From the NCBI GenBank assembly GCA_030427205.1, contig JAUHXC010000036.1, positions 16,185 to 80,184 of the forward strand: 64,000 nt of DNA. The letters run 5' to 3'. This DNA is from a bacterium (lineage in GTDB: Bacteria > Myxococcota_A > Bradymonadia > UBA7976 > UBA1532). Below the pieces are notes generated by a model. It was given only the letters and a program-made list of their open reading frames with translations, did no database searches and was not told the origin of the DNA. Each line of letters starts with the position of its first letter. Position 1 is the stretch's first letter. Positions 25,105-52,029 of the stretch are shown in pieces. A program made the translations under genes and the position numbers.

Positions 25105-25212
25105 GCCTGCATCCGCGGGGCGTTTGGCATGCTGTTCCTTCGTGATTTTTGAGTCTGTTTGGTATATTCGGGTATCAAACTGCATGAGCGGTACATTTTA
25201 TGCGGGGCGCAC

Positions 25213-36283: not shown

Positions 36284-37824
36284 GGGTCAAGCTGCTGTTG
36301 CTGTGCCTGGGGCTCGTCGGCTTCGGCCCGATGATGTGCGACCAGCCCGACGTGGAGACCGCGCGCCAGCAGCTGCGCAACGCCGAGGCCGAGCCGGCCC
36401 TGTCGACCCTGGCCGAGGTGGGCGCCGACGCGCCCGAGGTGCACCTGGCCCGGGCGCATGCGCACATCGCGCTGAAGCGGTGGGACGAGGCCTCGAGCAG
36501 CCTCGATCAGGCCATGCGCGGCATCGCCGAGCGCGACGCGAAGCTTTCCGCCGAACGCCAGATCGACGACCTGCCGCCGCTGCCGCTGCCCGAGCGGCCC
36601 AGCGCCGAGCTGCGGGCGCGTACGCTCTTCGCCCGGGGGCTGGTCACCGTCGGCCGGGCCGAGGCCGAAGAAGACCCCGAGGCGGCCAAGACCTACTGGG
36701 AAGGCGCCGTCATCGACTTCGGCAAGGTGCTCGGCCTGCGCCCCGACGACGAGGACGCCCGCTGGAACATGGAGTTGGCGTGGCACATGGCCAACCCGAT
36801 CTGCGTCAAGCGCGACGACGATCGGGAGCAGGACGATACCCGCGCCGAGGCGAAGCCCATCGATCTGCAGCAGGCCCCCGAGGTCACCGAGCGCAAGCTC
36901 TGCCCGTCCGACGAGGACTGGTACGTCGTCGAGGGCAAGCGCGACGCGATCCTCTTCGTGACGCTGACCGGCGAGCTGAAGCCCTTCGAAGAGGAGGAGA
37001 CCCGCGAGGTGCGGTTGGCGCTGTTCGGGCCCGATGACGACCGCCCGCTGCGCGAGGCGCCGATGGTCGACGGCAAGGCGCTGGTTGGGGTGACCGGGCT
37101 GGCGCTGGACGGGCAGTACGCGATCCAGGTGTCGGGGCCGGGCGCCGCCGAGGTGGACTACTCGATCAAGGTCGACATCGTGCCGCCGTGCCCCGTCGAC
37201 GATCAGCTCGAAGAGAACGACAGCCCCGAGGCGGCGACCGCGCTGAAGGACGGCCAGACCCCCGGCTTGAAGGCGTGCCCCGGCGACGCCGACTGGTACA
37301 CGATGACCGTGCCCGCCGGCGAGAAGCGCCAGCTCAAGGTGGGCTTCGACGCCGACCGGGCGCCGCTGGCGGTCGAGCGCTTCGACGCGCTGGGTCAGGT
37401 CGCCGAGCAGGTGGGCCGGGCGGGCCAGGGCGGCATGGGCCTCGACCTGCCCGGCGACGAGGAGAAGGACGTCACCTCGCTGGTGCGCATCATCCCGGTG
37501 GGCGACCGCGAGAATACCTACAGCCTCGAGCTGGCGCCGCCGGAGGACAACAGCGGCGGCCAGGACCAGCAGGACCAGCAGGACCAGCAGGACCAGCAGG
37601 ACCAGCAGGACCAGCAGGATCAGGAAGACGAGCAGGACGAGCAGGACCAGCAAGACGAGCAGGATCAGCAGGACCAGCAGGACCAGCAGCCGCCCGAGCC
37701 GCAGCCGCAGGAGGCCATCGACCTCGACAAGCTGATCGACGCCATCGACGCCCACGAGCGCAACCCGCAGCTCGAGAAGGCCCTCAAGGAGCTGCAGGTC
37801 GTGCCGCGCATGGAGGACTACTGA
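36280..37824 (+). CDS. BatC-like TPR protein carrying PPC-like (DWY) modules and an acidic QDQ-repeat tract
   Basis: Lipoprotein-like N-terminus. TPR-like helices. LCPSDEDWYVVEG and CPGDADWYTMTV are pre-peptidase C-terminal-type motifs. The protein carries a (QDQ)n tract. Confidence 0.8.
   Translation: MRVKLLLLCLGLVGFGPMMCDQPDVETARQQLRNAEAEPALSTLAEVGADAPEVHLARAHAHIALKRWDEASSSLDQAMRGIAERDAKLSAERQIDDLPPLPLPERPSAELRARTLFARGLVTVGRAEAEEDPEAAKTYWEGAVIDFGKVLGLRPDDEDARWNMELAWHMANPICVKRDDDREQDDTRAEAKPIDLQQAPEVTERKLCPSDEDWYVVEGKRDAILFVTLTGELKPFEEEETREVRLALFGPDDDRPLREAPMVDGKALVGVTGLALDGQYAIQVSGPGAAEVDYSIKVDIVPPCPVDDQLEENDSPEAATALKDGQTPGLKACPGDADWYTMTVPAGEKRQLKVGFDADRAPLAVERFDALGQVAEQVGRAGQGGMGLDLPGDEEKDVTSLVRIIPVGDRENTYSLELAPPEDNSGGQDQQDQQDQQDQQDQQDQQDQEDEQDEQDQQDEQDQQDQQDQQPPEPQPQEAIDLDKLIDAIDAHERNPQLEKALKELQVVPRMEDY
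37561..37689. repeat. caggaccag nonamer/hexamer microsatellite-like tandem repeat, about 14 units, imperfect
   Basis: Encodes QDQQDQQDQQDQQDQQDQEDEQDEQDQQDEQDQQDQQDQQ. Confidence 0.8.
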
Positions 37825-39710
37825 TGGCGCGCTCTCGGGCCGCTGGCGGCCGCTGGGCGGCCTCTGGGGGCATTCTGCCCGCGCGCCGGCGTCGCTTCGG
37901 CCCGATCCCGGCCCGCTCGACACTGCGCGGGCTGCCGCTGCGCGGGCTGATGCTGAGCGGGCTGATGCTGCTGGGGCTGCTGTTGCCGGCCGTCGCAGCG
38001 GCCGAGGGCACGCTGCGGGTGCGGGCCGACCAGACCGAGATCGAGCTCGGCGAGACCGTCACGCTCAAGATCCGCGCCGGCACCGACAGCGGCGCCCGCG
38101 GGCAGCTCGAGCTGGCGGCGCCGTCGCTGGACGACTGGAATCTGGTCGGCCAGTCGGAGTCGACCCGGGTCGATGGGTTTCGCGGCACCCGGACGACGAC
38201 CATCACCCTGCGGCTGCAGCCCAAGAAGGCCGGCACGCTGCGCATCGACCCCTTCACCCTCGAGCTGCCCACCGGGCCCATCCGCTCGGAAGCGATCAGC
38301 GTCACCGTGCGCGACGGCGGGGTCGCATCGCCCGACGCGCCGGCCACCCCCGGCCAGTCGCCGGCGACGCCCGGTACGCCGCCCTCCGAGGGGCCGCCCG
38401 ACGAGGTGGTCTTCCTGCGCTGGGAGGTCGACCGCGACAGCGTCTGGCTCGGCCAGCAGATCGACGCCCGGCTGTACATCTACGTGCGCGAGGGCATCGG
38501 CATCCGCGACTTCAAGCCGGGGGAGATCGACCTCGCCGGCTTCTGGAACGAGCAGCACCAGCAGAGCCGTCGCGCGCGGGCCCGACGGCTGGTGGTCGGC
38601 GGGCTGCGCTTCGAGCGGCAGGAGGTCGCCCACTACACGCTCTTCCCGCTGCGGGCCGGTGAGCGCGCGCTGCCCGAGGTGGGCGCGGAGATGATCGTGC
38701 GCCAGATGCGGGCCTTCGGCGGGCCGCGCAGCCTGATCAATCGGGTGGCGGCGCCGCTGAAGATCACCGTGCGGCCGCTGCCCGACGGCGCGCCCAAGGG
38801 CTTCGCCGGGCCGGCTGTCGGGCGGGCGCGGCTTTCGGCGGCGGTCGATCAGCGGCGCATCGACGCCAGCCAGGGGGTGCAGCTGACGCTGGTCACCCGC
38901 ATCGACGGGCTCATCCAGAACGTGCCGCCCGTCGAGCTGCCGGCGCTGGCTGACTTCAAGGTCTTCCCGGCGGGGGACGAGGCCCGCACCGAGCGCCGCT
39001 CGGGCAAGACCCGCGGGGTGCGCACCCAGAGCTGGCTGCTGCGGCCCAACCGCGGCGGCCGGCTGAAGATCCCCGCGCTGCAGCTGCCCTATTTCGACCC
39101 GGGGGCCGGGGCCTATCGCACCGCGCGCACCGCGCCGATCACGATCCAGGTGACCGGCGAGCCGGGGGTCGAGCAGGCGGAGGATACGCCGGCGGAGCGC
39201 GGGCCGGCCCTGCGCGACATCCACCCCGAGATCGACCCGCAGGCGACCGCCGAGGCCGAGCTGGGGGCGTGGTTCTGGGCCGCGTTGTTCGGCGCGCCGC
39301 TGCTGTTCTTGCTGGCCTGGGGCGGTGAGCGGCTGCGCGATCGACGGGACGCGACCGCCGGCAGCCGGGCGGCGCGCACCGCGGCCCGCGACGCCCGGCT
39401 GACGCTGGAGCGCATCGGCGAGAAGGGCGGCGAGGCCCGCGCCGGCTACAGCGCCGTCGCCCGGGCGATCATCGACTACCTCGAGACCCGCTTCGCGACG
39501 CCGTTCAACGGGCTCACCCGCGACGCCATGGCCGACGCGCTCACCGCCCGCGGGGCCGGGCGGGAGACGATCGACCGCCTGCTCGAAGAGCTCGACGCCT
39601 GCGACTTCGCCCGCTTCGCGCCGGCGGCCGACGCGGCGAGCGGGCTGGCGACGGCGGCCGGCCGGGCGGCGGACGCCATCGACGCGCTCGAGCGGGAGGT
39701 GAGCCGATGA
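37824..39710 (+). CDS. BatD-like protein (oxygen-tolerance family), secreted with C-terminal TM
   Basis: ATG overlaps the upstream stop. Signal peptide LMLLGLLLPAVAAAEG. C-terminal TM AWFWAALFGAPLLFLLAW. 628 aa. Confidence 0.75.
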   Translation: MARSRAAGGRWAASGGILPARRRRFGPIPARSTLRGLPLRGLMLSGLMLLGLLLPAVAAAEGTLRVRADQTEIELGETVTLKIRAGTDSGARGQLELAAPSLDDWNLVGQSESTRVDGFRGTRTTTITLRLQPKKAGTLRIDPFTLELPTGPIRSEAISVTVRDGGVASPDAPATPGQSPATPGTPPSEGPPDEVVFLRWEVDRDSVWLGQQIDARLYIYVREGIGIRDFKPGEIDLAGFWNEQHQQSRRARARRLVVGGLRFERQEVAHYTLFPLRAGERALPEVGAEMIVRQMRAFGGPRSLINRVAAPLKITVRPLPDGAPKGFAGPAVGRARLSAAVDQRRIDASQGVQLTLVTRIDGLIQNVPPVELPALADFKVFPAGDEARTERRSGKTRGVRTQSWLLRPNRGGRLKIPALQLPYFDPGAGAYRTARTAPITIQVTGEPGVEQAEDTPAERGPALRDIHPEIDPQATAEAELGAWFWAALFGAPLLFLLAWGGERLRDRRDATAGSRAARTAARDARLTLERIGEKGGEARAGYSAVARAIIDYLETRFATPFNGLTRDAMADALTARGAGRETIDRLLEELDACDFARFAPAADAASGLATAAGRAADAIDALEREVSR

Positions 39711-40528
39711 AGGCCCTGCTCGCGAGGTGCCTGCTCGGGCTGCTGATCACGGCGCTGCCCGCCGCGGCGCAGGAGACCGCGGCGCCGGAAGCCGCGGCGC
39801 CGGACGGCGTGGCCGCGGCGGTCTCCGCAGGCAAAGAGGCCTTCTGGAAGGGCGACTTCACCGCCGCCGAGCAGGCCTACGCCCGCGCCGTCGAGCAGGC
39901 GCCCACCGTGCCCGACCTCTGGTACAACCGCGGCACCGCCGCCGCCCGGGCCGAGCGCCCGGGTCCGGCGATGCACGCCTTCGAGCAGGCGCTGCTGCTC
40001 GCGCCGGGGCACGCCGACGCGGCGCACAACCTCGGCGTGGTCCGCCAGCAGGTCGTCGAGGCGGCCCTCGCCGGGCGCGCGTCGGACAAGCGCAGCATCC
40101 TGCCCGGCGAAGACGACGCCGGCACCGGCCTGCTGACCGCGCTCTCGCCGCGCAGCCTGGGCATCCTCTTCGCCATCGGTTGGATCCTGCTCTTCGCCGG
40201 CCTGCACGTGGGCCGGCGCACTCGCACGGCGTCGGTGCGCACCGCCGCCAGCTTCGCCGCGGTCGTCTTCGGCCTCGTCGCGCTCGGCGCCGGCGCGCTG
40301 CTCTACGGGCGGCAGTCGGTGGTCGGCGATCGGCTCTACGGCGTCGTCGCCAACGAGGGCCCGGCCCGCCAGGGCCCGGGCGAGCAGTATCCGGTCGTGG
40401 CCGGCGTCCTGCCCGGGGTCAAGGTGCGCCTCGGCGGCGAAGAGGGCGCCTGGCGCCAGGTCATCCTGCCCGACGGCGGCGGCGCCTGGATGCCCGCCGA
40501 GCAGGTCCTGCCGTTGCTGCGGCCCTGA
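39707..40528 (+). CDS. BatE-like TPR + SH3-like domain protein
   Basis: Signal peptide. TPR helices. Internal TM segments. C-terminal RLYGVVANEGPARQGPGEQYPVVAGVLPGVKVRLGGEEGAWRQVILPDGGGAWMPAEQV fits SH3b. Confidence 0.7.
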   Translation: MKALLARCLLGLLITALPAAAQETAAPEAAAPDGVAAAVSAGKEAFWKGDFTAAEQAYARAVEQAPTVPDLWYNRGTAAARAERPGPAMHAFEQALLLAPGHADAAHNLGVVRQQVVEAALAGRASDKRSILPGEDDAGTGLLTALSPRSLGILFAIGWILLFAGLHVGRRTRTASVRTAASFAAVVFGLVALGAGALLYGRQSVVGDRLYGVVANEGPARQGPGEQYPVVAGVLPGVKVRLGGEEGAWRQVILPDGGGAWMPAEQVLPLLRP

Positions 40529-40650: not shown

Positions 40651-42396
40651 ATGCACGTCGTCCGTTCTGCCCGTTCACTCGCCCTGGCGCTCATCGTCGC
40701 GTTGGGCGGCGCCTGCGACTCGGGGGACCCCGCCGAGCAGCCCCCGCTCGACATGGCGCCTGCGCCCGATATGTCGCTCGCGCTCGACATGAGCCCCGAC
40801 ATGCCGCCGGCGCCCGACGCGGGTCCCGATATGGCGCCCGCGCCCGACATGAGCCCCGACATGGCGCCCGACCCCCCGCCGGCGCGCTTCGAGCAGCTCG
40901 ACCGCTGCCTCGAAGACGTCATCGCCGGCAGCCCGGCCAGCGGCGCGGCGGTGGTCGTCGTCGAGCGCGGCGCGCTGGCCCACGCCGCGGGCCTCGGGCA
41001 TCGCAACGACCCCGACGCCACCCCCGTCGAGCCGAGCACCCTGTTCCGCTTCGCTTCGATCCTCAAGGGCATGACCGCGCTGGCCCTCTTCACCGAGGTC
41101 GAAGCGGGCAACCTCGACGTGCAGACGCCCGTCGCCGAGCTGCTGCCGGCCCTCGCCGAACACGCCGACCCGCGCTGGCAGACGCTCACCGTGCACCACT
41201 TGCTGACCCATCAGGGCGGCTTCGCCGACTACGGCGGGGTGCAGGCGCCGGGCGAGCCCGACAGCGTGCTCGGCGAGGTGGTCGAGAGCGCCGCGTTCGC
41301 CGAGGCGGCCTACTTCATGGTCGATCCGGGCACCTTCTACAACTACGCCAACCCCAACTACATGCTCGCCGGGCGGGTGCTCGAGGTGCTGACCGGCCAG
41401 AGCTATCGCGAGGCGATGCAGGCGCGGGTCTTCGCGCCGCTGGGTATGCAGCGGGCCATGTTCCGCCCGGTCGACGTCATCGCCGATGGCGACTACGCCC
41501 GCGGCTCGAGCGTGGACCCCGAGTCGGGCAGCGCGGTGCCGGTGCCCGCCGACGCCTATGACAGCGTATGGGGCCGCCCGGCGGGCATGGGCTGGGCCTC
41601 GGCGCTCGACCTCGCCCGCTACGTACAGTTCGTCATCGACGGGGGCCACCTCGGGGATGACCTCGACCCCGAGCCCTGGCTGCCGCCCGTCGGCCCCGAG
41701 ACCTGGCAGGCGTGGCGCGCCGAGCAGATCGAGGCCGAGTCGCACCTCATCCGCTACGGCGCGGCCCACGGCCTGATCATCGGCCAGGGGTTCTACATCG
41801 AGCGGCAGTACCACCCCATCACCACCGTGGGCCACGACGGCAACCTGCAGGGCTATACCAGCGTGATGCTCACCGCGCCCGAGCTGGACCTCGGCGCGCT
41901 GGTGCTGATCAACAGCGACTTCCTCAACGGCCCGTTGCACGGTTGCCTGAATACGCTGCTCACCACGAGCGAAGCCGCGCCCGGACCCGCCGAGCCACCC
42001 GTTCGCTGGCCCGACCCGCAGACCTTGGGCGACTACGTCGGCACCTTCGACGGCGGCCCCTGGCTGGGCACGATCATCATCAGCCTCGACGAGGCGGCCG
42101 GTCTGGTGCTCGACCTGCCCGACGCCGCAGCCGAGGGCATCCCCTTCGAGACGACCGTGCTGCCCTTCGCGCGGGACGTCTTCGTCGTCGACATCTACGA
42201 CTACCAACGCTTCGTCACCGGCATCCGCCTCGCGCCCGACGAGCCGGTGCACTACCTGCGCAGCCGGTATTTCGTCGGCCACCGCGTCGACGAGGCACCC
42301 CAGCAGAAGCGCCGGCGCGCCCTCGATGTCGAGCCGCTGCGCCGCCCCCGCCTGCTCTCCGAGCCCCTGCCGCCGGCCGCCGATCCGCGTCGCTGA
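40651..42396 (+). CDS. beta-lactamase-family serine hydrolase lipoprotein with N-terminal (PAPDM)n linker
   Basis: Lipobox LGGAC. SxxK motif FRFASILKGMTA. 581 aa. Confidence 0.85.
   Translation: MHVVRSARSLALALIVALGGACDSGDPAEQPPLDMAPAPDMSLALDMSPDMPPAPDAGPDMAPAPDMSPDMAPDPPPARFEQLDRCLEDVIAGSPASGAAVVVVERGALAHAAGLGHRNDPDATPVEPSTLFRFASILKGMTALALFTEVEAGNLDVQTPVAELLPALAEHADPRWQTLTVHHLLTHQGGFADYGGVQAPGEPDSVLGEVVESAAFAEAAYFMVDPGTFYNYANPNYMLAGRVLEVLTGQSYREAMQARVFAPLGMQRAMFRPVDVIADGDYARGSSVDPESGSAVPVPADAYDSVWGRPAGMGWASALDLARYVQFVIDGGHLGDDLDPEPWLPPVGPETWQAWRAEQIEAESHLIRYGAAHGLIIGQGFYIERQYHPITTVGHDGNLQGYTSVMLTAPELDLGALVLINSDFLNGPLHGCLNTLLTTSEAAPGPAEPPVRWPDPQTLGDYVGTFDGGPWLGTIIISLDEAAGLVLDLPDAAAEGIPFETTVLPFARDVFVVDIYDYQRFVTGIRLAPDEPVHYLRSRYFVGHRVDEAPQQKRRRALDVEPLRRPRLLSEPLPPAADPRR
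40748..40880. repeat. imperfect 12-15 bp tandem repeats (gcccgacatg...) encoding MAPAPDMSLALDMSPDMPPAPDAGPDMAPAPDMSPDMAPDPPP
   Basis: Read directly from the sequence. Confidence 0.6.
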
Positions 42397-42443
42397 CGAC
42401 GATCACCGGTCGATCCGCGCTCCCGAATACGCTATTTTTACAT

Positions 42444-42472
42444 TTGGCGATATTTTTCACTCTTGCTGTATA
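42444..42472 (+). promoter_or_regulatory. putative sigma70-type promoter in an AT-rich patch (TTGGCG-N17-TGTATA) upstream of the tail-fibre-like gene
   Basis: The only strongly AT-rich stretch for kilobases (gctatttttacatttggcgatatttttcactcttgctgtataggg). RBS GAAGGAG just before ATG 42490. Confidence 0.25.
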
Positions 42473-42489
42473 GGGTGAAGGAGCCGGAC

Positions 42490-44949
42490 ATGCGCATCTC
42501 CTCCCTTCGGACTCTCGTGGTCCTGGCCGCGCTCGGCGCGCTGCTCGCGCCCGCGGCGGCGTGGGCCCTGCCCGATCACATCTTGCAGGAGGGCCTGCTG
42601 CTCGACGCGGACGAGCTGCCGCTCGAGGGTCAGCACCGGCTGCGGGTGCGCCTGTACCCGACCGCGGCCGGCGGCGCGCCGATCTTCGAGGAGGTCCACC
42701 CGGCGGTGGTGGTCTTCCAGGGCTACTACGCCATCGCGATCGGCAGCGAGCAGGCGCTGCCACCGGGGCTCTTCGGTCAGCCGGAGCTGTACCTCGGGTT
42801 GTCGATCGACGGCGGGGCCGAGCTGACGCCGCGCACCGCGCTGAGCAAGGTGCCGGCGGCGTTTCATGCCGATGTCGCCGTCGACGCGGTGGGGGACATC
42901 CACCCGACGTCGGTCAGCATCGGCGAGCGGCAGGTGATCGACGGCAACGGCCGCTGGGTGGGTGATCCGACCGGGCTGCGCGGGCCGCAGGGACCGCGGG
43001 GGCCGGCGGGCGCCGAAGGGCCGCAGGGGCCGGAGGGCCCGCGGGGCGCGGCGGGCGGTGACGGCTCGCCGGATACCCCGCAGCAGGTGCGCGACAAGCT
43101 CGTGCAGGCCGACGGGGCCGGCTCGGGGATCGACGCCGACCTCTTCGACGGGCTCAACAGCAACCAGTTCGTGCGCACCGCGGCGCAGGTGCGCGATCTG
43201 CTGCGCACGGTGGACGGGGCCGGCTCGGGGGTGGACGCCGATCGCTTCGACGGGCTCGACAGCAGCCAGTTCGTGCGCACGGCGGCGCAGGTGCGTGATC
43301 TGCTGCGCACGGTGGACGGGGCCGGCTCGGGGGTGGACGCGGATCGGCTCGACGGCGTGGACAGCAGCCAGTTCGTGCGCACCGCCAATCAGGTGCGCGA
43401 CCTGCTGCGTACGGTGGACGGGGCCGGCTCGGGGGTCGACGCCGACCGCCTCGACGGGCTGGACAGCAGCCAGTTCTTGCGCGCGGACGGCAACGTCACC
43501 ATCAACGGCAACCTGACCGTCAACGGCACGATCAGCAGCCCGCAGCCCACGAGCCTGAAGGTCTTCAGCGGCAACAACCCGCCGGCGGCCTGCAACGGCG
43601 GCAACCGCGGCATGCTGTACTACGACACCAACGACGGGGTCTTCATGGGCTGCAACGGCGCGGCGTGGATCCCGCTGAGCGGCGCGGGCCAGGACAGCCT
43701 CGGCCGGGGCAACGTGCAGGTCAGCGGGCACTTCGGCGATACCCGCTCGACGCCCAACGGCTGGAGCAACCTGCCCGGGCGCGACGTGACGTTCAACAAG
43801 CGGCGGGCCGACACCGTGCTGCGGGTGACGTGGCAGGACGTGCTCGGCTACCACATGGTGGGCCACGGCTGGGGCTGCCGCTGGCGCTTGACCATCGACG
43901 GCGCGGTGCACGATCGGGCGGTCAACAGCCACACCAGCACCGCCCGCGGCTGGCGCATCCAGCCGATTCAGCAGGAGTGGATCGTGCAGGGTCTGGGCGC
44001 GGGCAACCACCGCTACCGGATCCAGCTCTATCGGCCCGACAGCAATACTTCGAGCGAGTGCCTGGCCGGCTGGCCCAACGGCGACACCCACAACTTCATC
44101 GCCGTCGAAGAGGTCGAGCCGGGCAACATCGCCGTCGCCCGCCACTTCGGCGATACCCGCTCGTCGCCCGGCGGCTGGGGCGACCTGCCCGGGCGGGCGA
44201 TCACCATCACCAAGGACCGCGACGATACCTACCTGCAGATCAGCTACCAGGACGTGCTGGGCTATCACATGGTGGGCCACAGCTGGGGCTGCCGCTATCG
44301 GCTGACGATGAACGGGCAGGCCGTCGATCGCACGTTCAGCCAGCACACCGGCAGCACCCGCGGCTGGCGCATCGACCCGCGCAACCTGACCTGGGTCATC
44401 GACGGGGTCAACCGCGGGCAATATACCTTCCGCATCCAGAACTACAGACCCAACGCCGGCTCGACCAGCGAGTGCCTGGCGGGTTGGCCCAACGGCGATA
44501 CGGCCAACCACCTCAGCGTGCGCGAGCTCGACCGGGATACGATCTCGATCCGGCGGCATATGTCCGATCGGCGCGATACGCCCAACGGCTGGAGCTATCT
44601 GCCCGAGCGCGACGTCAGCCACGTCAAGCAGGCCGGCGGCACCCGGATCCGGGTCACCTACATGGACACCCTGGGCTATCACATGGTGGGCCACGGCTGG
44701 GGCTGCCGCTGGCGGCTGGTGGTCGACAACAACGCCTACGGGCGGCCGATCAATACCCACACCAGCACCGGCCGTGGCTGGCGCATCGACCCGACCCGGC
44801 TCGAGTGGATCGTGCCCAACCTGGGGGCGGGCAATCACCGCTATCGCATCCAGCTCTATCGCCCGTCGGCTAATACGTCGAGCGAGTGCCTGGCCGGCTG
44901 GCCCAACGGCGAGACCGGCAACTTCTTGATGGTGCAGGAGGTCGACTGA
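42490..44949 (+). CDS. secreted collagen-like / phage-tail-fibre-repeat protein with three 138-aa C-terminal beta-rich repeat domains
   Basis: Signal peptide LVVLAALGALLAPAAAWA. Ten Gly-X-Y triplets (GLRGPQGPRGPAGAEGPQGPEGPRGAAGGDG). Four copies of the 35-aa repeat DGAGSGVDADRLDGLDSSQFVRTAAQVRDLLRTV, a phage tail-fibre-type motif. Three repeats of HFGDTRS.PNGW..LPGR...GYHMVGHGWGCRWRL...NHRYRIQLYRP...SECLAGWPNGDT. Confidence 0.85.
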   Translation: MRISSLRTLVVLAALGALLAPAAAWALPDHILQEGLLLDADELPLEGQHRLRVRLYPTAAGGAPIFEEVHPAVVVFQGYYAIAIGSEQALPPGLFGQPELYLGLSIDGGAELTPRTALSKVPAAFHADVAVDAVGDIHPTSVSIGERQVIDGNGRWVGDPTGLRGPQGPRGPAGAEGPQGPEGPRGAAGGDGSPDTPQQVRDKLVQADGAGSGIDADLFDGLNSNQFVRTAAQVRDLLRTVDGAGSGVDADRFDGLDSSQFVRTAAQVRDLLRTVDGAGSGVDADRLDGVDSSQFVRTANQVRDLLRTVDGAGSGVDADRLDGLDSSQFLRADGNVTINGNLTVNGTISSPQPTSLKVFSGNNPPAACNGGNRGMLYYDTNDGVFMGCNGAAWIPLSGAGQDSLGRGNVQVSGHFGDTRSTPNGWSNLPGRDVTFNKRRADTVLRVTWQDVLGYHMVGHGWGCRWRLTIDGAVHDRAVNSHTSTARGWRIQPIQQEWIVQGLGAGNHRYRIQLYRPDSNTSSECLAGWPNGDTHNFIAVEEVEPGNIAVARHFGDTRSSPGGWGDLPGRAITITKDRDDTYLQISYQDVLGYHMVGHSWGCRYRLTMNGQAVDRTFSQHTGSTRGWRIDPRNLTWVIDGVNRGQYTFRIQNYRPNAGSTSECLAGWPNGDTANHLSVRELDRDTISIRRHMSDRRDTPNGWSYLPERDVSHVKQAGGTRIRVTYMDTLGYHMVGHGWGCRWRLVVDNNAYGRPINTHTSTGRGWRIDPTRLEWIVPNLGAGNHRYRIQLYRPSANTSSECLAGWPNGETGNFLMVQEVD
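43111..43485. repeat. near-identical 105-bp tandem repeats x3.5 (35-aa tail-fibre-type units)
   Basis: DNA copies differ at only a few positions. Confidence 0.8.
43729..44946. repeat. three diverged 414-bp (138-aa) tandem domain repeats
   Basis: Repeat boundaries at aa 414, 552 and 690 of the protein. Confidence 0.75.
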
Positions 44950-44950
44950 C

Positions 44951-47900
44951 GTGCAGGCCTCGCGGGGAGGAGGCGCGCTGCTCGTATTGCTGGGCTGCGC
45001 GATGGGCTTTTGGGGCTGTGACGGCGACGGGGGCGACCCGGCCGCCGACATGATGCAGGCGACGGCCGACGGTTCGGGCGGCAGCGGCGGCGCGGGCGGC
45101 ATGATGGCCGAAGACGTCGGCCCCGATATCGACGCCGGCTGTCCGTGCCCCGGGCAGCAGACGTGCGACGCCGCTGGAGCCTGCGTCGAGCCCGAGGTCT
45201 GCGCCGACGACGTCGACTGCCTCGCCGGGCGGCTGTGCCTCGAGGGCGCGTGTCGTCAGGCGTGCCTCGGCGACGGCGAGTGCGGCGACGGCGAGCGCTG
45301 TGATCCCGAGGCGGCGGTCTGCGTGCCCGACATGCGCTGCATGGACGACGGCGACTGCCCCGACGGGGCGTGCGACGACGGCGAGTGCGTCGCCCCCTGC
45401 GTCGACGGTATGTGCCCCGGGCAGCAGACCTGCGATCCGGCCACCGGCGACTGCGTCGAGCCGGCGGTCTGCGCCGAGGACGTCGACTGCCTCGACGGGC
45501 GCATCTGCCTCGACGGGGCCTGCGCGACGCCGTGCGGCGAGGCGGCCGACTGCCCGGGGGCCCAGCAATGCGCGATGGGCCGCTGCGCCGAGCCGGACGT
45601 CTGCACCGCCGACCTGGACTGCGTCGCCGATCGGCTGTGCGTGGCCGACGCCTGCGCCGATCCGTGCGGGCGGGCGGGCTGCCCGGGCGGGCTGGTCTGC
45701 GACGGCGGCAGCGGGCGCTGCGACGAGGCCGACCCCTGCGCCGACGACGGCGGCTGCTTCGCCGGCCGCCGCTGCGCCGAGGGGCTGTGCGTCGACCCGT
45801 GCGTCGAAGACGCCGAGTGCGTCGGGGCCGAGGTCTGCCGCGAGGGCCTGTGCATCATGCCGGTGGACTGCGACTTCGACGCGGCGTGCGGGCCCGGGCG
45901 GGTCTGCGTCGAGGGCGCCTGCCAGGACGGCTGCCCGGCGATGCCCTGCCCCGAGGGCGCGATCTGCGACAACGCGAGCGGGCGCTGCGTGGTGCCCGGC
46001 GGCTGCGTCGAGGCGGCGGATTGCCAGGGGGCGCAGACCTGCGAGGGTGGATTCTGCGTCGAGCCGGCGTTCTGCAACGGCGACGTCGACTGCCTCGAAG
46101 GCCGCGTCTGCCGCGACGGCGCCTGCGTGGGGCTGTGCGAGCGGGACGTCGACTGCGCCGGCAGCCAGCTCTGCGAGGGCGGTCAATGTGTCGAAGGGCC
46201 CCGCTGCGGTGACGATGACGACTGCCTCGGCGGGCGGCGCTGCGCCCCCGATCTGGCGGCGTGTATCGATCCGTGCCCCGACGGGTTCTGCCCGGGCGGC
46301 CTGGCCTGCGTCGACGGCCTCTGCACCGAGCCGCCGGCCTGCAACGACGACGTCGACTGCGCCGGGACCCGCTTCTGCCGGCTGAACGCCTGCTTCTCGG
46401 CGGGCCTCGACGGCCCCTGTGAGGGCCGAGACGCGTGCCCCGAGGCCTGCGTCGACTTCGACTGCGCCGACGCGGTGCCCGGGGCCTGCGATTGCCCCGA
46501 GGGCTGGGGCTGTATCGACGATGGCTGCGTCGCGCCGGGCCCGTGCGGGCGCTGCCCCGACGGCTGGCAGTGCGCCGACGACGGCCGCTGCCTGCGCTGC
46601 GTCGCCGACGGCGACTGCCCCGGCGGCGGGGTGTGCGACCGCGGCGCGTGCGTCGATCCGCCGGCCTGCGAAGACGACGCGGACTGCCTGCCGGGCCATC
46701 GCTGCCCGTTCGGGCGCTGCGAGATCGATTTCGCCGCGTGCCAGGACGATCCGATCGCCGGCGCGGGGCCCGATCTGGCGACGCTGCTGCCGCCGCTGGC
46801 CCTCACCCGGCTGACCGCCTGCGACGGCGTCTCCGACTGGTTCCGGGTGGGCGACGCCGATGACGCGCTGCGGGTGACGGTGCGCTTCGCCGCCGACGTC
46901 GCGCCGCCGCGGGTGCGGCTGTACCCGGTGCTCGATCCGGGTACGCCGCTGGCCGAGGCCGAGCCGCAGCCCGGCGAGGCCCGGGTGTCCGCGGGTCCGG
47001 GCGACTATCTGATCGAAGTCCGGGCGGCGCCCGGCGCGTCGATCGACTATGGCGTCGAGTTCGAGCAGGGCGTCGAGTGCGCCGCCGATCGCTTCGAGCG
47101 CCCGTGGGCCAATGACGACCGCGAGCGGGCGCGCACGGTGCCGCCGGGTGTCATCGCGGGCACGCTGTGCGCCGGCGACGAGGACTGGTTCCGCATCGAC
47201 GTGCCGCGGCGCATGCAGGTCAGCATCGAGGGGGCGACCGCCGAGGTGGACGGCCGGCGGGCCCCGTTGGCCACCGAAGGCCCGCTCACCGTTCGGGTCT
47301 CGGCCCTCGGTCGCGCCGACTACACCCTCAGCGTGCTGCCGGTGGCCGACCCCGAAGCGGCCTGTGAGCAGGCCGGGCCGCTGGCGTTCGGGGTCGACGA
47401 AGACGCCACCGTCGAAGCCGGCGGCGACGACTTCGCGCCCGCTTGCGGGGCGGCGGGCGGCGCCGAGCGGGTCTTTGCGCTCGATGTGCCGCGCGCCGGG
47501 CGACTGACCGCCGATCTGAACGGCGTCGGCGGGGCGCTTTACCTCTATGGTGACTGCGCCGACGCGCCGCTGGCCTGCTCGGCGGCCGCGGGCGGCATCG
47601 ACACCGAGGTCGAGGAGGGCAGCTACCGCCTCGTCGTCGACGGGCCGTTCGAGGGCACCGTGCGCGTCGATCTGGAGGCGGTGTCGATCCTGTGCGACGA
47701 CCCGCCGCCGCTCGAGCCCGGGCAGACCGAGATCCCGCTGCCCGTCGGCCCGGCCGACATCGGCGGGGGCTGCACCGACCCCGAGCTGGGGGCGGTCGTG
47801 CGCCGCATCGAGGTGGCCGAGCCGTCCATCGCCCGCCTCGCGCTGCAGGGCGGCGGCCCCGAGGCGCTGGTCTCGATCCGCGACGACTGCGCGGCGGTCG

Positions 47901-48400
47901 AGCCCCTGGCCTGCGGGCTGGCGCCGGACGCGTCTGTCGCGCCCCGCCTCGCGCCGGGCACCTACTTCGCGGTCGTTCAAGGCGCCGGCGCGGTCACCGC
48001 CGATCTGATCCTCGAGCCCGTGGGCGACGTCGGCGGCTTCGTCGACGCCTGCGACGGCGCGCCGCTGGCGGTCGGGCCGGGCACCGACCTGCCGCTGCAG
48101 GGTGACCTGACCGGAGCCGGCGACAGCGTCGACCTGGCTTTGTGCGCCGGGCTGCCGGCGAGCCCCGACGCGGTCTTCCGCTTCACGCTCGACGCCCGGG
48201 CGACGGTGGTGGCCTTCATCGAAGACGCCGCCTTCGGGGCGCGACTGGCGGTGGTCAACGAAGACTGCGGCGTCGCCGAGTGCGGCAGCCCGATGACCGG
48301 TGATGTCTTCGCCGATCTCGCGCCGGGCACCTACGGGCTGGTCATGGAGGCCGACGGGTTGGGCGGCGGCCCGTTCCGGGTGCGGCTGCAGGTGCAGTAG
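44951..48400 (+). CDS. 1149-aa Cys-rich-repeat lipoprotein (myxobacterial disulfide-repeat type) with C-terminal PPC-like domains
   Basis: GTG 2 nt after upstream stop. Lipobox LLVLLGCAMGFWGC. About 20 repeats of C..G.C...C.DD.DC..G..C..G.C. DWFRV and DEDWFRIDVP are PPC-type motifs. Confidence 0.8.
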   Translation: MQASRGGGALLVLLGCAMGFWGCDGDGGDPAADMMQATADGSGGSGGAGGMMAEDVGPDIDAGCPCPGQQTCDAAGACVEPEVCADDVDCLAGRLCLEGACRQACLGDGECGDGERCDPEAAVCVPDMRCMDDGDCPDGACDDGECVAPCVDGMCPGQQTCDPATGDCVEPAVCAEDVDCLDGRICLDGACATPCGEAADCPGAQQCAMGRCAEPDVCTADLDCVADRLCVADACADPCGRAGCPGGLVCDGGSGRCDEADPCADDGGCFAGRRCAEGLCVDPCVEDAECVGAEVCREGLCIMPVDCDFDAACGPGRVCVEGACQDGCPAMPCPEGAICDNASGRCVVPGGCVEAADCQGAQTCEGGFCVEPAFCNGDVDCLEGRVCRDGACVGLCERDVDCAGSQLCEGGQCVEGPRCGDDDDCLGGRRCAPDLAACIDPCPDGFCPGGLACVDGLCTEPPACNDDVDCAGTRFCRLNACFSAGLDGPCEGRDACPEACVDFDCADAVPGACDCPEGWGCIDDGCVAPGPCGRCPDGWQCADDGRCLRCVADGDCPGGGVCDRGACVDPPACEDDADCLPGHRCPFGRCEIDFAACQDDPIAGAGPDLATLLPPLALTRLTACDGVSDWFRVGDADDALRVTVRFAADVAPPRVRLYPVLDPGTPLAEAEPQPGEARVSAGPGDYLIEVRAAPGASIDYGVEFEQGVECAADRFERPWANDDRERARTVPPGVIAGTLCAGDEDWFRIDVPRRMQVSIEGATAEVDGRRAPLATEGPLTVRVSALGRADYTLSVLPVADPEAACEQAGPLAFGVDEDATVEAGGDDFAPACGAAGGAERVFALDVPRAGRLTADLNGVGGALYLYGDCADAPLACSAAAGGIDTEVEEGSYRLVVDGPFEGTVRVDLEAVSILCDDPPPLEPGQTEIPLPVGPADIGGGCTDPELGAVVRRIEVAEPSIARLALQGGGPEALVSIRDDCAAVEPLACGLAPDASVAPRLAPGTYFAVVQGAGAVTADLILEPVGDVGGFVDACDGAPLAVGPGTDLPLQGDLTGAGDSVDLALCAGLPASPDAVFRFTLDARATVVAFIEDAAFGARLAVVNEDCGVAECGSPMTGDVFADLAPGTYGLVMEADGLGGGPFRVRLQVQ

Positions 48401-48423: not shown

Positions 48424-49566
48424 TCAGGGCGGCGGCGCGCAGTCCCGGCGACCGGCTTCGCGCGGAGACAGCCGACGGGACTCGCCCAGGCGGGCCAGGA
48501 TGATCGCCTGGGCTTCGGGGTCGGCCGCCGGATCGAGCGGCTGCGTCACGTAGCGCCCGCTCTGCGGGTCGAGCCGGGTATGCAGCGGCACATAGCCCAG
48601 CCCGCCGATGCGCAGCCGACCGTCGGCGCCCGGCGCGAGCCCGACGAAGGCCATCGCCGTCGCCCGCCGCGCCGGCTTCTGCTGATGGCTGACGAAGTTG
48701 CCCATCGAGTACAGCACCCACGCCCGCCGACCGCCGCCCTCGACCTCATCCCACGGCTGCAGCACATGCGGGTGATTGCCGACGATCAGATCGACCCCCG
48801 CGGCCACCGCCTCCCGGGCCAGCACGGTCTGCTTCGCGCGCGGCTGGGGTCGATACTGGCGGCCCCAATGGGGCGTGAAGACGATGAAGTGCACGTCTTC
48901 GCGGGCCCGCAGCCGGCGGATGTCGGCGAGCAACCGGCTTCGCTCGGCGGGCACGTTGCATTCGAGCACCTGATCGGCGGCGTCGCGGTTGCGGTTGAGC
49001 CAGCTCGCGCAGGCGACCCAGGCCACCCGCCACGGGCCGACGGTCGTCTCGGTCACCCACGAGCCCCCAGTGCCGCCGCGCCGGGTGCCGACGAAGGGCA
49101 GCCGCGCCGCTTCGAGCGCGTCGATCGTCAGGTCGAGCCCGCGCGGGCCGCGATCGAGCGCGTGGTTGTTGGCCGTCGAGACGATGTCGAAGCCGCTCAT
49201 TCGCAGGTCGGCTGCCAGCCGCGGGTGATAGTTGAAGCGGCGATAGCCGGAGTAGACGACGCCGTCGTAGGCCTCACCCGGGTCGGGGGCCGGGCGCCAC
49301 CGGGCGTCGAGGCCCGGCGCCAGCGGGCCTTCCAGGTTGGCGTAGGCCAGATCGGCCCGGGCGATCAGCGCGCGGGTCGGGGCCCACAAGCCGGCGAAGC
49401 GCCGGGGCTCGGTCCAGGCCTGGGCCTGCAGCTCGCGGTGGATCAAGACATCGCCCACCGCCGACAGCGTCAGCGCGGCGCCGGGCAGGCACGGGGGCAG
49501 GGGGTCGGCCGCCGCGGCCCCCGCGGAGAAACACAGCCACGCCAGCAGGGCGAACAGACGACGCAT
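48424..49566 (-). CDS. CapA-family metallophosphatase (poly-gamma-glutamate capsule biosynthesis-like)
   Basis: AVGDVLIH, ANNHALDRG and VGNHPHV motifs. Signal peptide. Start MRRLF at aa 7 of the track ORF. Confidence 0.85.
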   Translation of the reverse strand: MRRLFALLAWLCFSAGAAAADPLPPCLPGAALTLSAVGDVLIHRELQAQAWTEPRRFAGLWAPTRALIARADLAYANLEGPLAPGLDARWRPAPDPGEAYDGVVYSGYRRFNYHPRLAADLRMSGFDIVSTANNHALDRGPRGLDLTIDALEAARLPFVGTRRGGTGGSWVTETTVGPWRVAWVACASWLNRNRDAADQVLECNVPAERSRLLADIRRLRAREDVHFIVFTPHWGRQYRPQPRAKQTVLAREAVAAGVDLIVGNHPHVLQPWDEVEGGGRRAWVLYSMGNFVSHQQKPARRATAMAFVGLAPGADGRLRIGGLGYVPLHTRLDPQSGRYVTQPLDPAADPEAQAIILARLGESRRLSPREAGRRDCAPPP

Positions 49567-49629
49567 CGGCGCACGATACAGCAATCGGACGGGCAGGGGA
49601 GCCGGATCGCGCGGGCTCGAAACGACCGC

Positions 49630-51813
<2,184 letters not shown>

Positions 51814-52029
51814 GGTCGACTCCCGCAAACAGTCGAAGCGTCGGCGTCCGCCGGGACTTCGGGCCCCCGTGGTACCCGCTCCTGCCAGCGGATTGCAACC
51901 GCGGCCCGACCGGCAGGTCGGCGCAGCCCGCCGCCGGGCGAGGATTTCTGCGGCGGGGTCGATTCGAGAAAGCAATGGGGGCCCGCGGCCGGTTGCGGTA
52001 GGCTGACGCGATTTCGACGGAGGGCGCCG

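What the first reader, a model, noticed from the sequence alone, without database searches (positions are those of the whole stretch)
42490..44949. Orphan phage-tail-fibre-like secreted protein with collagen triple-helix segment and a triplicated 138-aa C-terminal domain
A signal peptide is followed by 10 Gly-X-Y triplets, then four 35-aa DGAGSGVDADRLDGLDSSQF repeats characteristic of phage tail fibres/receptor-binding proteins, then three copies of a Cys-containing beta-rich module (GYHMVGHGWGCRWRL ... NHRYRIQLYRP ... SECLAGWPNGDT) with no family I can name. No other phage genes are nearby, and it is preceded by the only AT-rich promoter-like patch in the region. Candidate domesticated receptor-binding protein, adhesin or lectin.
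Basis: partly seen in the sequence, partly recalled or inferred. Interest (0 to 1): 0.6.

Follow-up and report, generated by a model that had tools for sequence, protein, structure and literature searches.

The report
Bacterial fibre with covalent C1q-like head
This gene from a probable myxobacterium encodes a secreted fibre whose three tandem C-terminal modules are distant relatives of the animal CTHRC1 C-terminal domain. The three modules are predicted to fold together into one "single-chain" C1q/TNF-like head, and the gene is always followed by a large cysteine-rich lipoprotein gene.

Summary
Window 42490-44949 (+) encodes an 819-aa secreted protein. It has a signal peptide, a conserved N-terminal domain, 11 Gly-X-Y triplets, four 34-aa phage-tail-fibre-type repeats, a Cys-knot neck and three 138-aa modules.

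The "unnameable" module is a divergent CTHRC1 C-terminal domain (Pfam PF25815 superfamily, C1q/TNF-like jelly roll). Pfam's own model misses it. Profiles built without its close relatives link it firmly to vertebrate CTHRC1.

AlphaFold2 models the three modules as one compact body (pLDDT 93.8, pTM 0.93). The best PDB match is the engineered single-chain C1q head, over the whole length. Giant paralogues carry 15 and 21 modules in strict triplets, which independently supports the triplet as the structural unit.

The protein is not an orphan: 289 clusters match the module, in bacteria and dinoflagellates. Only the stalk repeats resemble phage fibres. The head has no sequence relative in the phage collections searched.

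In five loci the gene is tightly followed by a ~1150-aa DUF7107 cysteine-rich lipoprotein gene.

Most likely it is a trimeric surface or secreted adhesin/lectin fibre, similar in design to Bdellovibrio MAT fibres. I rate it a new variant of a known kind, of moderate interest.

The parts
42421..42480 (+). AT-rich upstream patch (38% GC). It contains a motif shared with the orthologous locus L001 (GCGCTATTTT...TGGYGATATTTTTCAC). It is a putative promoter or regulatory region.
   Evidence: No sigma-70 consensus was called, so function is inferred only.
42477..42483 (+). Shine-Dalgarno-like GAAGGAG, 6 nt before the ATG
   Evidence: Read directly from the sequence.
42490..44949 (+). CDS of the 819-aa fibre protein, stop codon included
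   Evidence: GC3 0.92. Orthologues P0004/L001 are 78% identical and L003 is 50% identical.
42490..42567 (+). Signal peptide, aa 1-26 (MRISSLRTLVVLAALGALLAPAAAWA|LP)
   Evidence: By inspection. No predictor was run. Orthologues have equivalent N-termini.
42568..42972 (+). Conserved N-terminal domain, aa 27-161. It is shared by the triple-head, giant and many single-head fibres. Putative anchor or adaptor domain.
   Evidence: Alignment A4: 11 proteins, 27-71% identical to the target. Family N-termini are shown. No Pfam hit.
42973..43071 (+). Collagen-like segment, 11 uninterrupted Gly-X-Y triplets (aa 162-194)
   Evidence: Pfam Collagen scores 18.6 bits, below its 27.2-bit cut-off.
43072..43494 (+). 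Four 34-aa phage-tail-fibre-type repeats (aa 195-335). The DNA tandem array is at 43111-43482.
43495..43701 (+). Neck, aa 336-404. It has short GN(V/L)T(I/V)NG repeats and a two-Cys knot (C368, C388; motif ACNGGNRGMLYYDTNDGVFMGCNGAAWIPL) that recurs in relatives just before the head.
43702..44115 (+). Head module 1 (aa 405-542), divergent CTHRC1_C / C1q-TNF-like jelly roll; Cys463/Cys524
   Evidence: 47.4 bits to the canonical CTHRC1_C profile.
44116..44529 (+). Head module 2 (aa 543-680); Cys601/Cys662
   Evidence: 33.7 bits.
44530..44946 (+). Head module 3 (aa 681-819); Cys739/Cys800
   Evidence: 31.7 bits.
44951..48400 (+). Conserved downstream partner gene. It encodes a 1149-aa predicted lipoprotein with about 8 DUF7107 Cys-rich repeats and a C-terminal half with weak PPC-like beta domains. 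It starts 1 nt after the fibre gene's stop codon.

Best explanation
The gene encodes a secreted fibre built like a phage fibre, a collectin or C1q. An N-terminal domain is inferred to dock the fibre at the cell surface. The stalk is made of elements that fold as trimers elsewhere: a short collagen triple helix and T4-gp34-type repeats. The C-terminal head does the binding.

The head is unusual. Instead of three chains each giving one C1q/TNF-like jelly roll, each chain carries three divergent CTHRC1_C jelly rolls joined by linkers of 0-5 residues. These pack around a pseudo-threefold axis into a covalent 'single-chain' gC1q-like head. If the stalk trimerises, the fibre would display three such heads.

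By analogy with TNF-like bacterial lectins and with the TNF-like tips of Bdellovibrio MAT fibres, the head most likely binds a surface glycan or protein ligand at its three non-equivalent inter-module grooves. This would give adhesion to prey, kin or matrix.

The translationally coupled downstream DUF7107 lipoprotein is proposed to be the fibre's surface anchor or binding partner.

What is shown: domain anatomy, family membership, predicted fold and packing, triplet periodicity, gene pairing and purifying selection. What is inferred: trimerisation, surface location, ligand binding and the partner interaction.
For: Family:
- A profile of 167 modules with no vertebrate sequences scores all 120 vertebrate CTHRC1 proteins at a median of 26.7 bits (maximum 31.4). 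The maximum for 2520 shuffled or reversed controls is 4.5 bits.
- A profile of six Pfam-passing modules plus six vertebrate CTHRC1 sequences hits the target's three modules at 47.4, 33.7 and 31.7 bits. The control maximum is 6.0 bits.
- Architectural sibling P0133 has the same N-domain and stalk repeats. Its triple head scores 220 bits to PF25815.

Fold:
- The single-module model has pLDDT 80.5. It matches C1QL1, EDA, 4-1BBL, TRAIL and the TNF-like lectins BC2L-C and PLTL.

Pseudo-trimer:
- The three-module model has pLDDT 93.8 and pTM 0.93.
- Its top PDB matches are the single-chain recombinant C1q head 5hzf/5hkj (E 1e-14, TM 0.61-0.64 over about 400 residues) and a single-chain APRIL-BAFF-BAFF trimer (TM 0.52).
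- gC1q termini emerge at the trimer base, so 3-residue linkers are enough to join the modules (PMC4774423).

Triplet as the unit:
- At least 27 of the 150 best hits have exactly three modules.
- Giant paralogues have 15 and 21 modules, with the linker pattern ~0, ~0, ~12-16 aa repeating.

Extracellular location:
- The two Cys of each module covary: both present in 131, both absent in 33, one alone in 3 of 167 modules.

Pairing:
- The DUF7107 lipoprotein gene lies directly downstream in the window, L001, L003, L004/5 and L008/9 (39-72% identity). The stop and start codons are 1-2 nt apart in four of these and overlap in L003.

Functional analogy:
- MAT fibres have TNF-like tips that bind GlcNAc and LPS (PMC10769870).

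Selection:
- dN/dS is 0.14-0.24 in the heads.
Against: - There is no experimental data on any family member.
- The packing comes from a single-chain AlphaFold2 run, which cannot sample inter-chain alternatives.
- Pfam's CTHRC1_C model does not detect the target and gives only 17 bits for its orthologue.
- Position-specific orthology of modules 1, 2 and 3 across the family is weak.
- The heads are more conserved than the N-domain. This is the opposite of the tip variability expected for prey or host-range receptors.
- Homology of the N-domain to the Bdellovibrio MAT anchor domain could not be tested.
- A trimeric stalk that ends in three separate heads has no solved precedent that I know of.
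Confidence: 0.6

Rival explanations
1. It is a domesticated phage or tailocin receptor-binding fibre. On this view the protein is, or recently was, the tail fibre of a prophage or contractile injection system and targets that particle to cells.
For: - The stalk repeats match phage tail-fibre PHROGs and T4 gp34.
- Whole-length structural analogues of the triple head exist among predicted proteins of uncultured Caudovirales and giant viruses (TM 0.61-0.71).
- One related locus (L004/L005) has tube, LysM-tube and gpD-like CIS genes 2.6-9 kb upstream.
Against: - There are no phage or tail genes around the gene in the window, L001 or L003.
- The head has no sequence match in 50,697 phage genomes or in IMG/VR.
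- Codon usage is native.
- In L004 an EF-G gene separates the cassette from the CIS genes, and no baseplate genes are seen.
- The viral analogues are only about 10% identical.
Confidence: 0.1
2. It is an extracellular-matrix or cohesion component rather than a prey or foreign-surface adhesin. On this view the heads bind a conserved self ligand, for example the Cys-rich repeats of the co-encoded lipoprotein or the cell's own exopolysaccharide. The fibres would then cross-link cells or matrix, much as CTHRC1 and C1q-family proteins act in animal matrix.
For: - The heads are under the strongest purifying selection (dN/dS 0.14-0.24, against 0.54 for the N-domain).
- The pairing with a giant Cys-rich lipoprotein is strict.
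- Giant paralogues with 5-7 heads per chain suggest multivalent cross-linking.
- In L006 a giant DUF4215/PPC protein is also adjacent.
Against: There is no direct evidence for any ligand. The selection comparison rests on a single orthologue pair. This reading overlaps with the best explanation and differs from it only in the ligand.
Confidence: 0.2
3. The three modules do not form an intrachain pseudo-trimer. Instead each module trimerises with its equivalents on the two other chains, giving three stacked homotrimeric knobs along the fibre axis.
For: - The stalk elements imply a homotrimer.
- Stacked knob domains occur in some phage fibres (general knowledge).
- The AlphaFold2 run used one chain only.
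Against: [quoted passage not shown] Linkers of 0-5 residues therefore cannot span a stacked arrangement.
- pTM is 0.93, and the match to single-chain C1q covers the whole length.
- The triplet linker periodicity in the 15- and 21-module proteins is unexplained by stacking.
Confidence: 0.08

Closest known systems
[quoted passage not shown]
   Same: - The order is the same: signal peptide, short collagen run (11 versus 12 Gly-X-Y) and a C-terminal domain of about 137 aa.
- Profile homology is significant.
- The C1q-like fold is predicted here and in the literature (PMC7058181).
- That paper already noted bacterial metagenome proteins with this domain plus collagen, and Symbiodinium proteins with up to three copies.
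   Different: - The target falls below Pfam's threshold.
- It carries three covalently linked domains instead of one.
- It has an extra N-terminal domain, phage-type stalk repeats and a Cys-knot neck.
- It is bacterial and paired with a DUF7107 lipoprotein gene.
- CTHRC1's Wnt/TGF-beta signalling roles cannot be transferred to it.
C1q globular head and its engineered single-chain form (PDB 5hzf/5hkj)
   Same: The three-module model superposes on it over its whole length (TM 0.61-0.64). It has three non-identical jelly rolls around a pseudo-threefold axis, short linkers at the base, and sits on a collagen stalk.
   Different: - In C1q the three modules come from three chains, and the single chain is man-made. 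Here the fusion is natural.
- Sequence identity is about 10%.
- There is no Pfam C1q signature.
Bdellovibrio MAT (mosaic adhesive trimer) fibres with TNF-like tips (Bd2439, Bd2734; PMC10769870)
   Same: Both are surface fibres of a predatory-type bacterium with a conserved N-terminal domain, a trimeric phage-like stalk and a swappable C-terminal tip. TNF-like tips of MAT fibres bind GlcNAc and LPS. Myxococcales members are listed in that paper.
   Different: - MAT tips are one domain per chain.
- MAT stalks are beta-prisms or beta-helices rather than collagen plus gp34-type repeats.
- N-domain homology was not tested here.
- No DUF7107 partner is reported for MAT fibres.
TNF-like bacterial lectins (BC2L-C N-terminal domain 2wq4; PLTL 9ib7) and chlamydial Pgp3
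   Same: They are among the best single-module structural matches (TM up to 0.64-0.69). They are trimeric jelly rolls, and the lectins bind sugars at protomer interfaces.
   Different: They are homotrimers of separate chains. No sequence similarity was detected to any solved structure, these included. No sugar-binding residues could be mapped onto the target.
T4 gp34 long-tail-fibre proximal subunit and phage tail-fibre PHROGs
   Same: The 34-aa DADxLDGxDSSQF repeats align to them.
   Different: The similarity is confined to the stalk. The head and N-domain are unrelated, and the gene is not in a phage context.

Membership tests
Pfam PF25815 CTHRC1_C | Score at or above Pfam's gathering threshold (27 bits) against the curated model | tested here: not met
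   The target has no PF25815 hit at E<=1. Orthologue P0004 scores 17.1 bits, E 0.007. The model is in the library: human CTHRC1 scores 225.6 bits.
Pfam PF25815 CTHRC1_C | Significant, near full-length profile similarity to bona fide CTHRC1_C domains | tested here: met
   A profile of six Pfam-passing modules plus six vertebrate CTHRC1 sequences scores the target's modules at 47.4, 33.7 and 31.7 bits over positions 17-131, with controls at or below 6.0 bits. The family profile scores 120 vertebrate CTHRC1 at a median of 26.7 bits, with controls at or below 4.5 bits. Family members P0133, P0071, P0077, P0088, P0094, P0109, P0136, P0050, P0032 and P0003 pass PF25815.
C1q/TNF superfamily | Compact jelly-roll beta-sandwich of about 130-140 residues | tested here: met
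   The AlphaFold2 module has 8 strands and pLDDT 80.5. Foldseek matches it to C1QL1/3, EDA-A1, 4-1BBL, TRAIL, TNF-alpha and C1q (E about 1e-3, TM 0.39-0.64). This rests on a predicted structure.
C1q/TNF superfamily | Three jelly rolls packed around a (pseudo-)threefold axis with termini at the base | tested here: met
   The three-module model has pTM 0.93. It superposes over its whole length on single-chain C1q (TM 0.61-0.64) and on single-chain APRIL-BAFF-BAFF. This rests on a predicted structure. Independent support comes from the triplet linker periodicity.
C1q/TNF superfamily | Sequence signature of Pfam C1q (PF00386) or TNF (PF00229) | tested here: not met
   Neither family was reported for the target at E<=1.
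Phage tail fibre / receptor-binding protein | Stalk repeats homologous to phage fibres | tested here: met
   PHROG tail-fibre families hit with E from 2e-16 to 1e-9. T4 gp34 hits at E 0.01. tblastn hits 38 phage records over the repeats only.
Phage tail fibre / receptor-binding protein | Encoded within a prophage, tailocin or CIS gene cluster | tested here: not met
   The window neighbours are VWA/BatD/TPR genes, a beta-lactamase-family gene, DUF7107, PGA_cap and an M48 peptidase. L001 has imuA/imuB/dnaE2 upstream. Only L004/5 has partial CIS genes nearby, and these are separated from the cassette by an EF-G gene.
Phage tail fibre / receptor-binding protein | Distal binding domain related to phage receptor-binding tips | tested here: inconclusive
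   There is no sequence match in phage genomes or IMG/VR. However, BFVD holds whole-length fold analogues in uncultured Caudovirales and giant viruses at about 10% identity.
MAT fibre superfamily (Caulton et al. 2024) | The invariant MAT N-terminal domain | not testable with these tools
   No MAT N-terminal sequence or structure was reachable. A profile search with the target-type N-domain (A4) returned only 26 short proteins, of which four carried a source label (three 'hypothetical protein', one 'trimeric autotransporter adhesin') and none a Bdellovibrio or MAT name. The N-domain is conserved across this family.
MAT fibre superfamily (Caulton et al. 2024) | Trimeric fibre with a variable adhesive C-terminal tip | not tested
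   Trimerisation is inferred from the collagen and gp34-type repeats. Relatives swap stalk types (collagen, coiled coil, Ala-rich repeats) while keeping the head.
Collagen triple helix (PF01391) | Uninterrupted Gly-X-Y run long enough to score as collagen | tested here: inconclusive
   There are 11 uninterrupted triplets, but they score 18.6 bits against a 27.2-bit cut-off. CTHRC1 trimerises with 12 triplets, as cited in PMC7058181.

The most novel reading that the evidence does not exclude
The locus may be a bacterial two-component recognition module. One part is a trimeric fibre that displays natural single-chain C1q-like heads: three per fibre here, and up to 21 modules (7 heads) per chain in paralogues. 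The other part is a dedicated Cys-rich lipoprotein that the fibre docks to or recognises. On this reading it is a prokaryotic counterpart of C1q/CTHRC1-type ligand-receptor matrix systems. It could also represent the pool from which dinoflagellate, choanoflagellate and animal CTHRC1 domains were drawn or exchanged. Covalent triplication would then be a general route to asymmetric, hetero-specific TNF/C1q heads, also used by phages and giant viruses.
Probability: 0.15. Interest if true: 0.75.

Novelty: new variant of a known kind. Interest (0 to 1): 0.55.

Why it matters
It gives the poorly understood CTHRC1 C-terminal domain a concrete bacterial setting and a testable structural rule: three modules make one head, whether they come from three chains or from one.

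It describes a natural version of the single-chain C1q/TNF designs that protein engineers build by hand. In such a head the three interfaces can diverge, allowing asymmetric recognition.

It extends the 'mix-and-match' fibre design of predatory bacteria to a new tip type in Myxococcota.

It also flags a conserved candidate partner (the DUF7107 lipoprotein) for a question the MAT-fibre paper left open (PMC10769870): what anchors such fibres to the cell. None of this overturns current views, and the function remains untested.

Tried and rejected
- Pfam, NCBIfam and PDB sequence searches with the module found nothing usable.
- hhalign against a remembered human CTHRC1 sequence (E 0.076) and against a vertebrate-only alignment (51% probability, 42 columns) was weak. 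The link became solid only with HMMER profiles and bridging family members. The remembered sequence was verified as human CTHRC1.
- The word-indexed homology search found a single relative, P0001.
- The exact-sequence look-up of the target found nothing.
- Alignments A2 and A3 were too divergent for locus scans.
- The N-domain profile search gave only unnamed fragments, so MAT membership stays open.
- The test for position-specific orthology of modules 1, 2 and 3 gave only a weak signal for positions 2 and 3 and none for position 1. I therefore make no claim of a single ancient triplication.
- The sigma-70 promoter and terminator scan was empty. I considered and dropped a sigma-54 reading of the conserved upstream motif because the -12 GC is missing.
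- The upstream beta-lactamase-family protein hits a PHROG 'minor tail protein with lysin activity'. I rejected this as a phage signal because it is a generic serine-hydrolase fold and is absent from the orthologous loci.
- The long antisense ORF at 42457-45102 is not among the frames with coding-type codon-position GC and is treated as a high-GC artefact.
Full report
**Observation.**
The ORF listed at 42463-44949 (+) most likely starts at the ATG at 42490. A GAAGGAG sits 6 nt upstream, and the start matches the N-terminus of the closest orthologue. Its third-position GC is 0.92, like the surrounding genes. Against the orthologue in L001, every region except the signal peptide has dN/dS below 1. 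It is therefore a real, native, selected gene.

- There are 11 Gly-X-Y triplets (aa 162-194), not 10.
- The stalk repeat period is 34 aa (DGAGSG motifs at aa 208/242/276/310), not 35.
- At the DNA level the stalk repeat is a 102-bp tandem array with 89% matches.
- The three C-terminal modules (aa 405-542, 543-680, 681-819) are 55% and 64% identical to the first, with 56 invariant columns.
- The AT-rich patch at 42421-42480 (38% GC against 72.6% overall) is the second most AT-rich 60-mer in the window.
- Part of that patch is conserved upstream of the orthologue in L001. No sigma-70 consensus was found there.

**What the module is.**
Pfam, NCBIfam and PDB sequence searches gave nothing for the module. 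The word-indexed search found a single relative, P0001, a fragment with a coiled coil followed by three modules.

An exhaustive HMM search with the six modules found 289 clusters at E<=1e-3 and 144 at E<=1e-10. The module always sits at the C-terminus. At least 27 of the best 150 hits have exactly three modules. Many others have one module, and about 17 of those sit directly after a collagen run.

The pattern recalled CTHRC1. I tested this in four steps.
- I confirmed that my remembered sequence really is human CTHRC1: it is 100% identical to P0187.
- That search also showed that Pfam now has a CTHRC1_C family, PF25815, of 137 positions.
- A 167-module profile that contains no vertebrate sequence scores all 120 retrieved vertebrate CTHRC1 proteins at a median of 26.7 bits. 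The best of 2520 shuffled or reversed controls scores 4.5 bits.
- In the other direction, I built a profile from six modules of Pfam-passing proteins plus six vertebrate CTHRC1 sequences. It hits the target's three modules at 47.4, 33.7 and 31.7 bits, against a control maximum of 6.0 bits.

P0133 has the same N-domain and stalk repeats as the target. Its triple head scores 220 bits to PF25815. Pfam's own model nevertheless misses the target and gives only 17 bits to its orthologue. The target is therefore a divergent branch of the CTHRC1_C superfamily, not a formal Pfam member.

Leclère et al. 2020 (PMC7058181) had already reported this domain in a few bacterial metagenome proteins, some with collagen. 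They also reported up to three copies in Symbiodinium proteins and modelled the domain as C1q-like. One triple-module cluster found here includes a Cladocopium (dinoflagellate) sequence.

**Fold and packing.**
An AlphaFold2 model of one module (pLDDT 80.5) is an 8-stranded sandwich. It matches C1QL1/3, EDA-A1, 4-1BBL, TRAIL, the TNF-like lectins BC2L-C and PLTL, and chlamydial Pgp3.

A model of aa 400-819, built with a 20-sequence alignment of triple heads, has pLDDT 93.8 and pTM 0.93. Its best PDB matches are engineered single-chain trimers:
- the single-chain C1q globular head 5hzf/5hkj (E 1e-14, TM 0.61-0.64 over about 400 residues);
- a single-chain APRIL-BAFF-BAFF trimer (TM 0.52).

Single-domain hits reach only TMq of about 0.25. 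The three modules are therefore predicted to surround a pseudo-threefold axis. [quoted passage not shown] The natural linkers here are 0-5 residues.

Sequence evidence supports this independently of AlphaFold2.
- Giant paralogues carry 15 modules (P0003) and 21 modules (P0274).
- Their linkers follow a repeating pattern of ~0, ~0, ~12-16 residues, that is 5 and 7 triplets.
- The two cysteines of each module covary almost perfectly across 167 modules: both present in 131, both absent in 33, one alone in 3. This fits a disulfide in an extracellular domain.

Position-specific orthology of modules 1, 2 and 3 is weak, so I make no claim about a single ancient triplication.

**The rest of the protein.**
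The domain at aa 27-161 is shared by triple-head, giant and many single-head relatives. The stalk between that domain and the head varies among relatives: collagen, gp34-type repeats, coiled coil or Ala-rich repeats. A Cys-knot motif recurs just before the head. This is the layout of a modular fibre.

Only the 34-aa repeats resemble phage proteins. They match PHROG tail-fibre families, T4 gp34 and 38 phage records, and the matches cover the repeats only.

**Context.**
Upstream lie VWA, BatD and TPR/SH3 genes and a beta-lactamase-family gene. Downstream lie the DUF7107 gene, PGA_cap and an M48 peptidase gene. No phage structural genes are present.

The fibre's stop codon is followed after 1 nt by a 1149-aa protein. 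That protein has a lipobox, about 8 DUF7107 Cys-rich repeats and a C-terminal half with weak PPC-like domains.

The same pair occurs in four other loci:
- L001 (MAG 3_bin.88): fibre 78% identical, partner 72%;
- L003 (Myxococcota MAG): fibre 50%, partner 44%, with stop and start codons overlapping;
- L004/5 and L008/9: two loci of a lower-GC organism, partner 39% identical over its full length, where a giant multi-triplet gene follows as a third gene.

The upstream genes differ between loci. The pair is therefore the conserved unit. In L006 three triple-head paralogues sit next to a 2514-aa DUF4215/PPC/LTD protein.

**Phage link.**
The head has no tblastn match in 50,697 phage genomes. The canonical CTHRC1_C triple head of P0133 has none either, and a pattern scan of IMG/VR found nothing.

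Structurally, however, BFVD holds viral proteins of about 400 aa that match the whole triple model at TM 0.61-0.71 and about 10% identity. They come from uncultured Caudovirales (one is named 'C1q domain-containing') and from giant viruses. Covalent triple C1q-like heads are therefore not unique to this family.

One related locus has partial CIS genes a few kb upstream, separated from the cassette by an EF-G gene.

**Mechanism.**
The best-supported reading is a secreted, probably trimeric fibre whose chains each end in a covalent C1q-like head that binds a ligand at its three non-equivalent grooves. The closest functional model is the Bdellovibrio MAT fibre family. MAT fibres have an invariant N-terminal domain, a trimeric stalk and swappable tips, including TNF-like tips that bind GlcNAc and LPS. 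Their cell-surface anchor is still unknown (PMC10769870).

I propose that the translationally coupled lipoprotein is the anchor or partner. Trimerisation, surface display, ligand binding and the partner interaction are all inferences.

One observation cuts against a prey-receptor arms race. Between the two closest genomes the heads are the most constrained region (dN/dS 0.14-0.24, against 0.54 for the N-domain). This favours a conserved or self ligand, as in the matrix/cohesion rival.

**Verdict.**
Three features are new as far as I could find: the natural single-chain head, the triplet rule in giant paralogues, and the conserved DUF7107 partner.

**Limits.**
All structural claims rest on predictions. 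Two fold libraries were unavailable. MAT membership could not be tested.

Noticed in passing
L004:15955-22349 and L009:10001-17356 (proteins P0274, 3301 aa; P0003, 2451 aa): These giant fibre paralogues have the same N-domain, collagen and stalk as the target, but 21 and 15 CTHRC1_C-like modules arranged as 7 and 5 triplets. They are encoded as the third gene after a triple-head fibre gene and its DUF7107 partner.
   Followed up: partly
L004:786-7349 (also L005:2-3542): Contractile-injection-system genes (T4 gp19-like tube, a 1448-aa protein, CIS_tube/LysM, gpD-like) lie 2.6-9 kb upstream of the fibre cassette, with an EF-G paralogue in between. No baseplate genes are visible. This is the only related locus with such genes.
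   Followed up: partly
L006:5248-12454: Three consecutive triple-head fibre paralogues (775, 809 and 817 aa) with abutting or overlapping coding regions sit beside a divergently transcribed 2514-aa DUF4215/PPC/LTD protein.
   Followed up: partly
window 42421-42480 versus L001 upstream of 10001: The AT-rich patch contains a motif conserved between the two orthologous loci (GCGCTATTTT-N-TGGYGATATTTTTCAC). It is not a sigma-70 consensus and lacks the -12 GC of sigma-54 promoters. It may be a regulator site.
   Followed up: partly
window 33162-40525: A Bat-like cluster lies upstream: two VWA-domain proteins, a BatD-domain protein and a TPR+SH3 protein.
   Followed up: no
window 40651-42396: The upstream 581-aa beta-lactamase/PBP-family protein has a Pro/Asp/Met-rich N-terminal repeat. 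It hits PHROG 382 ('minor tail protein with lysin activity', E 7e-32). It is not conserved next to the orthologues, so this is probably just a shared hydrolase fold.
   Followed up: partly
window 55110-56543 (-): This ORF has a match to the animal haem peroxidase family (PF03098, E 6e-12), which is uncommon in bacteria.
   Followed up: no
window 25143-25202: This is the most AT-rich 60-mer of the window (37% GC), at an intergenic position. It may be another strong promoter or regulatory region.
   Followed up: no
window 48424-49584 (-) and 48580-53250 (+): A PGA_cap capsule-synthesis gene on the minus strand overlaps the 5' part of a 1557-aa plus-strand ORF. The only domain in that ORF is an M48 peptidase near its C-terminus, so its true start is probably much later.
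   Followed up: no
BFVD entries A0A6J5RA88, A0A6J5LW36, A0A3G5A5N8, A0A3G4ZPZ6, A0A3G5A5X5: These uncharacterised proteins of about 400 aa, from uncultured tailed phages and giant viruses, are predicted to have the same covalent triple C1q-like head (TM 0.61-0.71 to the model). This suggests that the design arose repeatedly or is very old.
   Followed up: no
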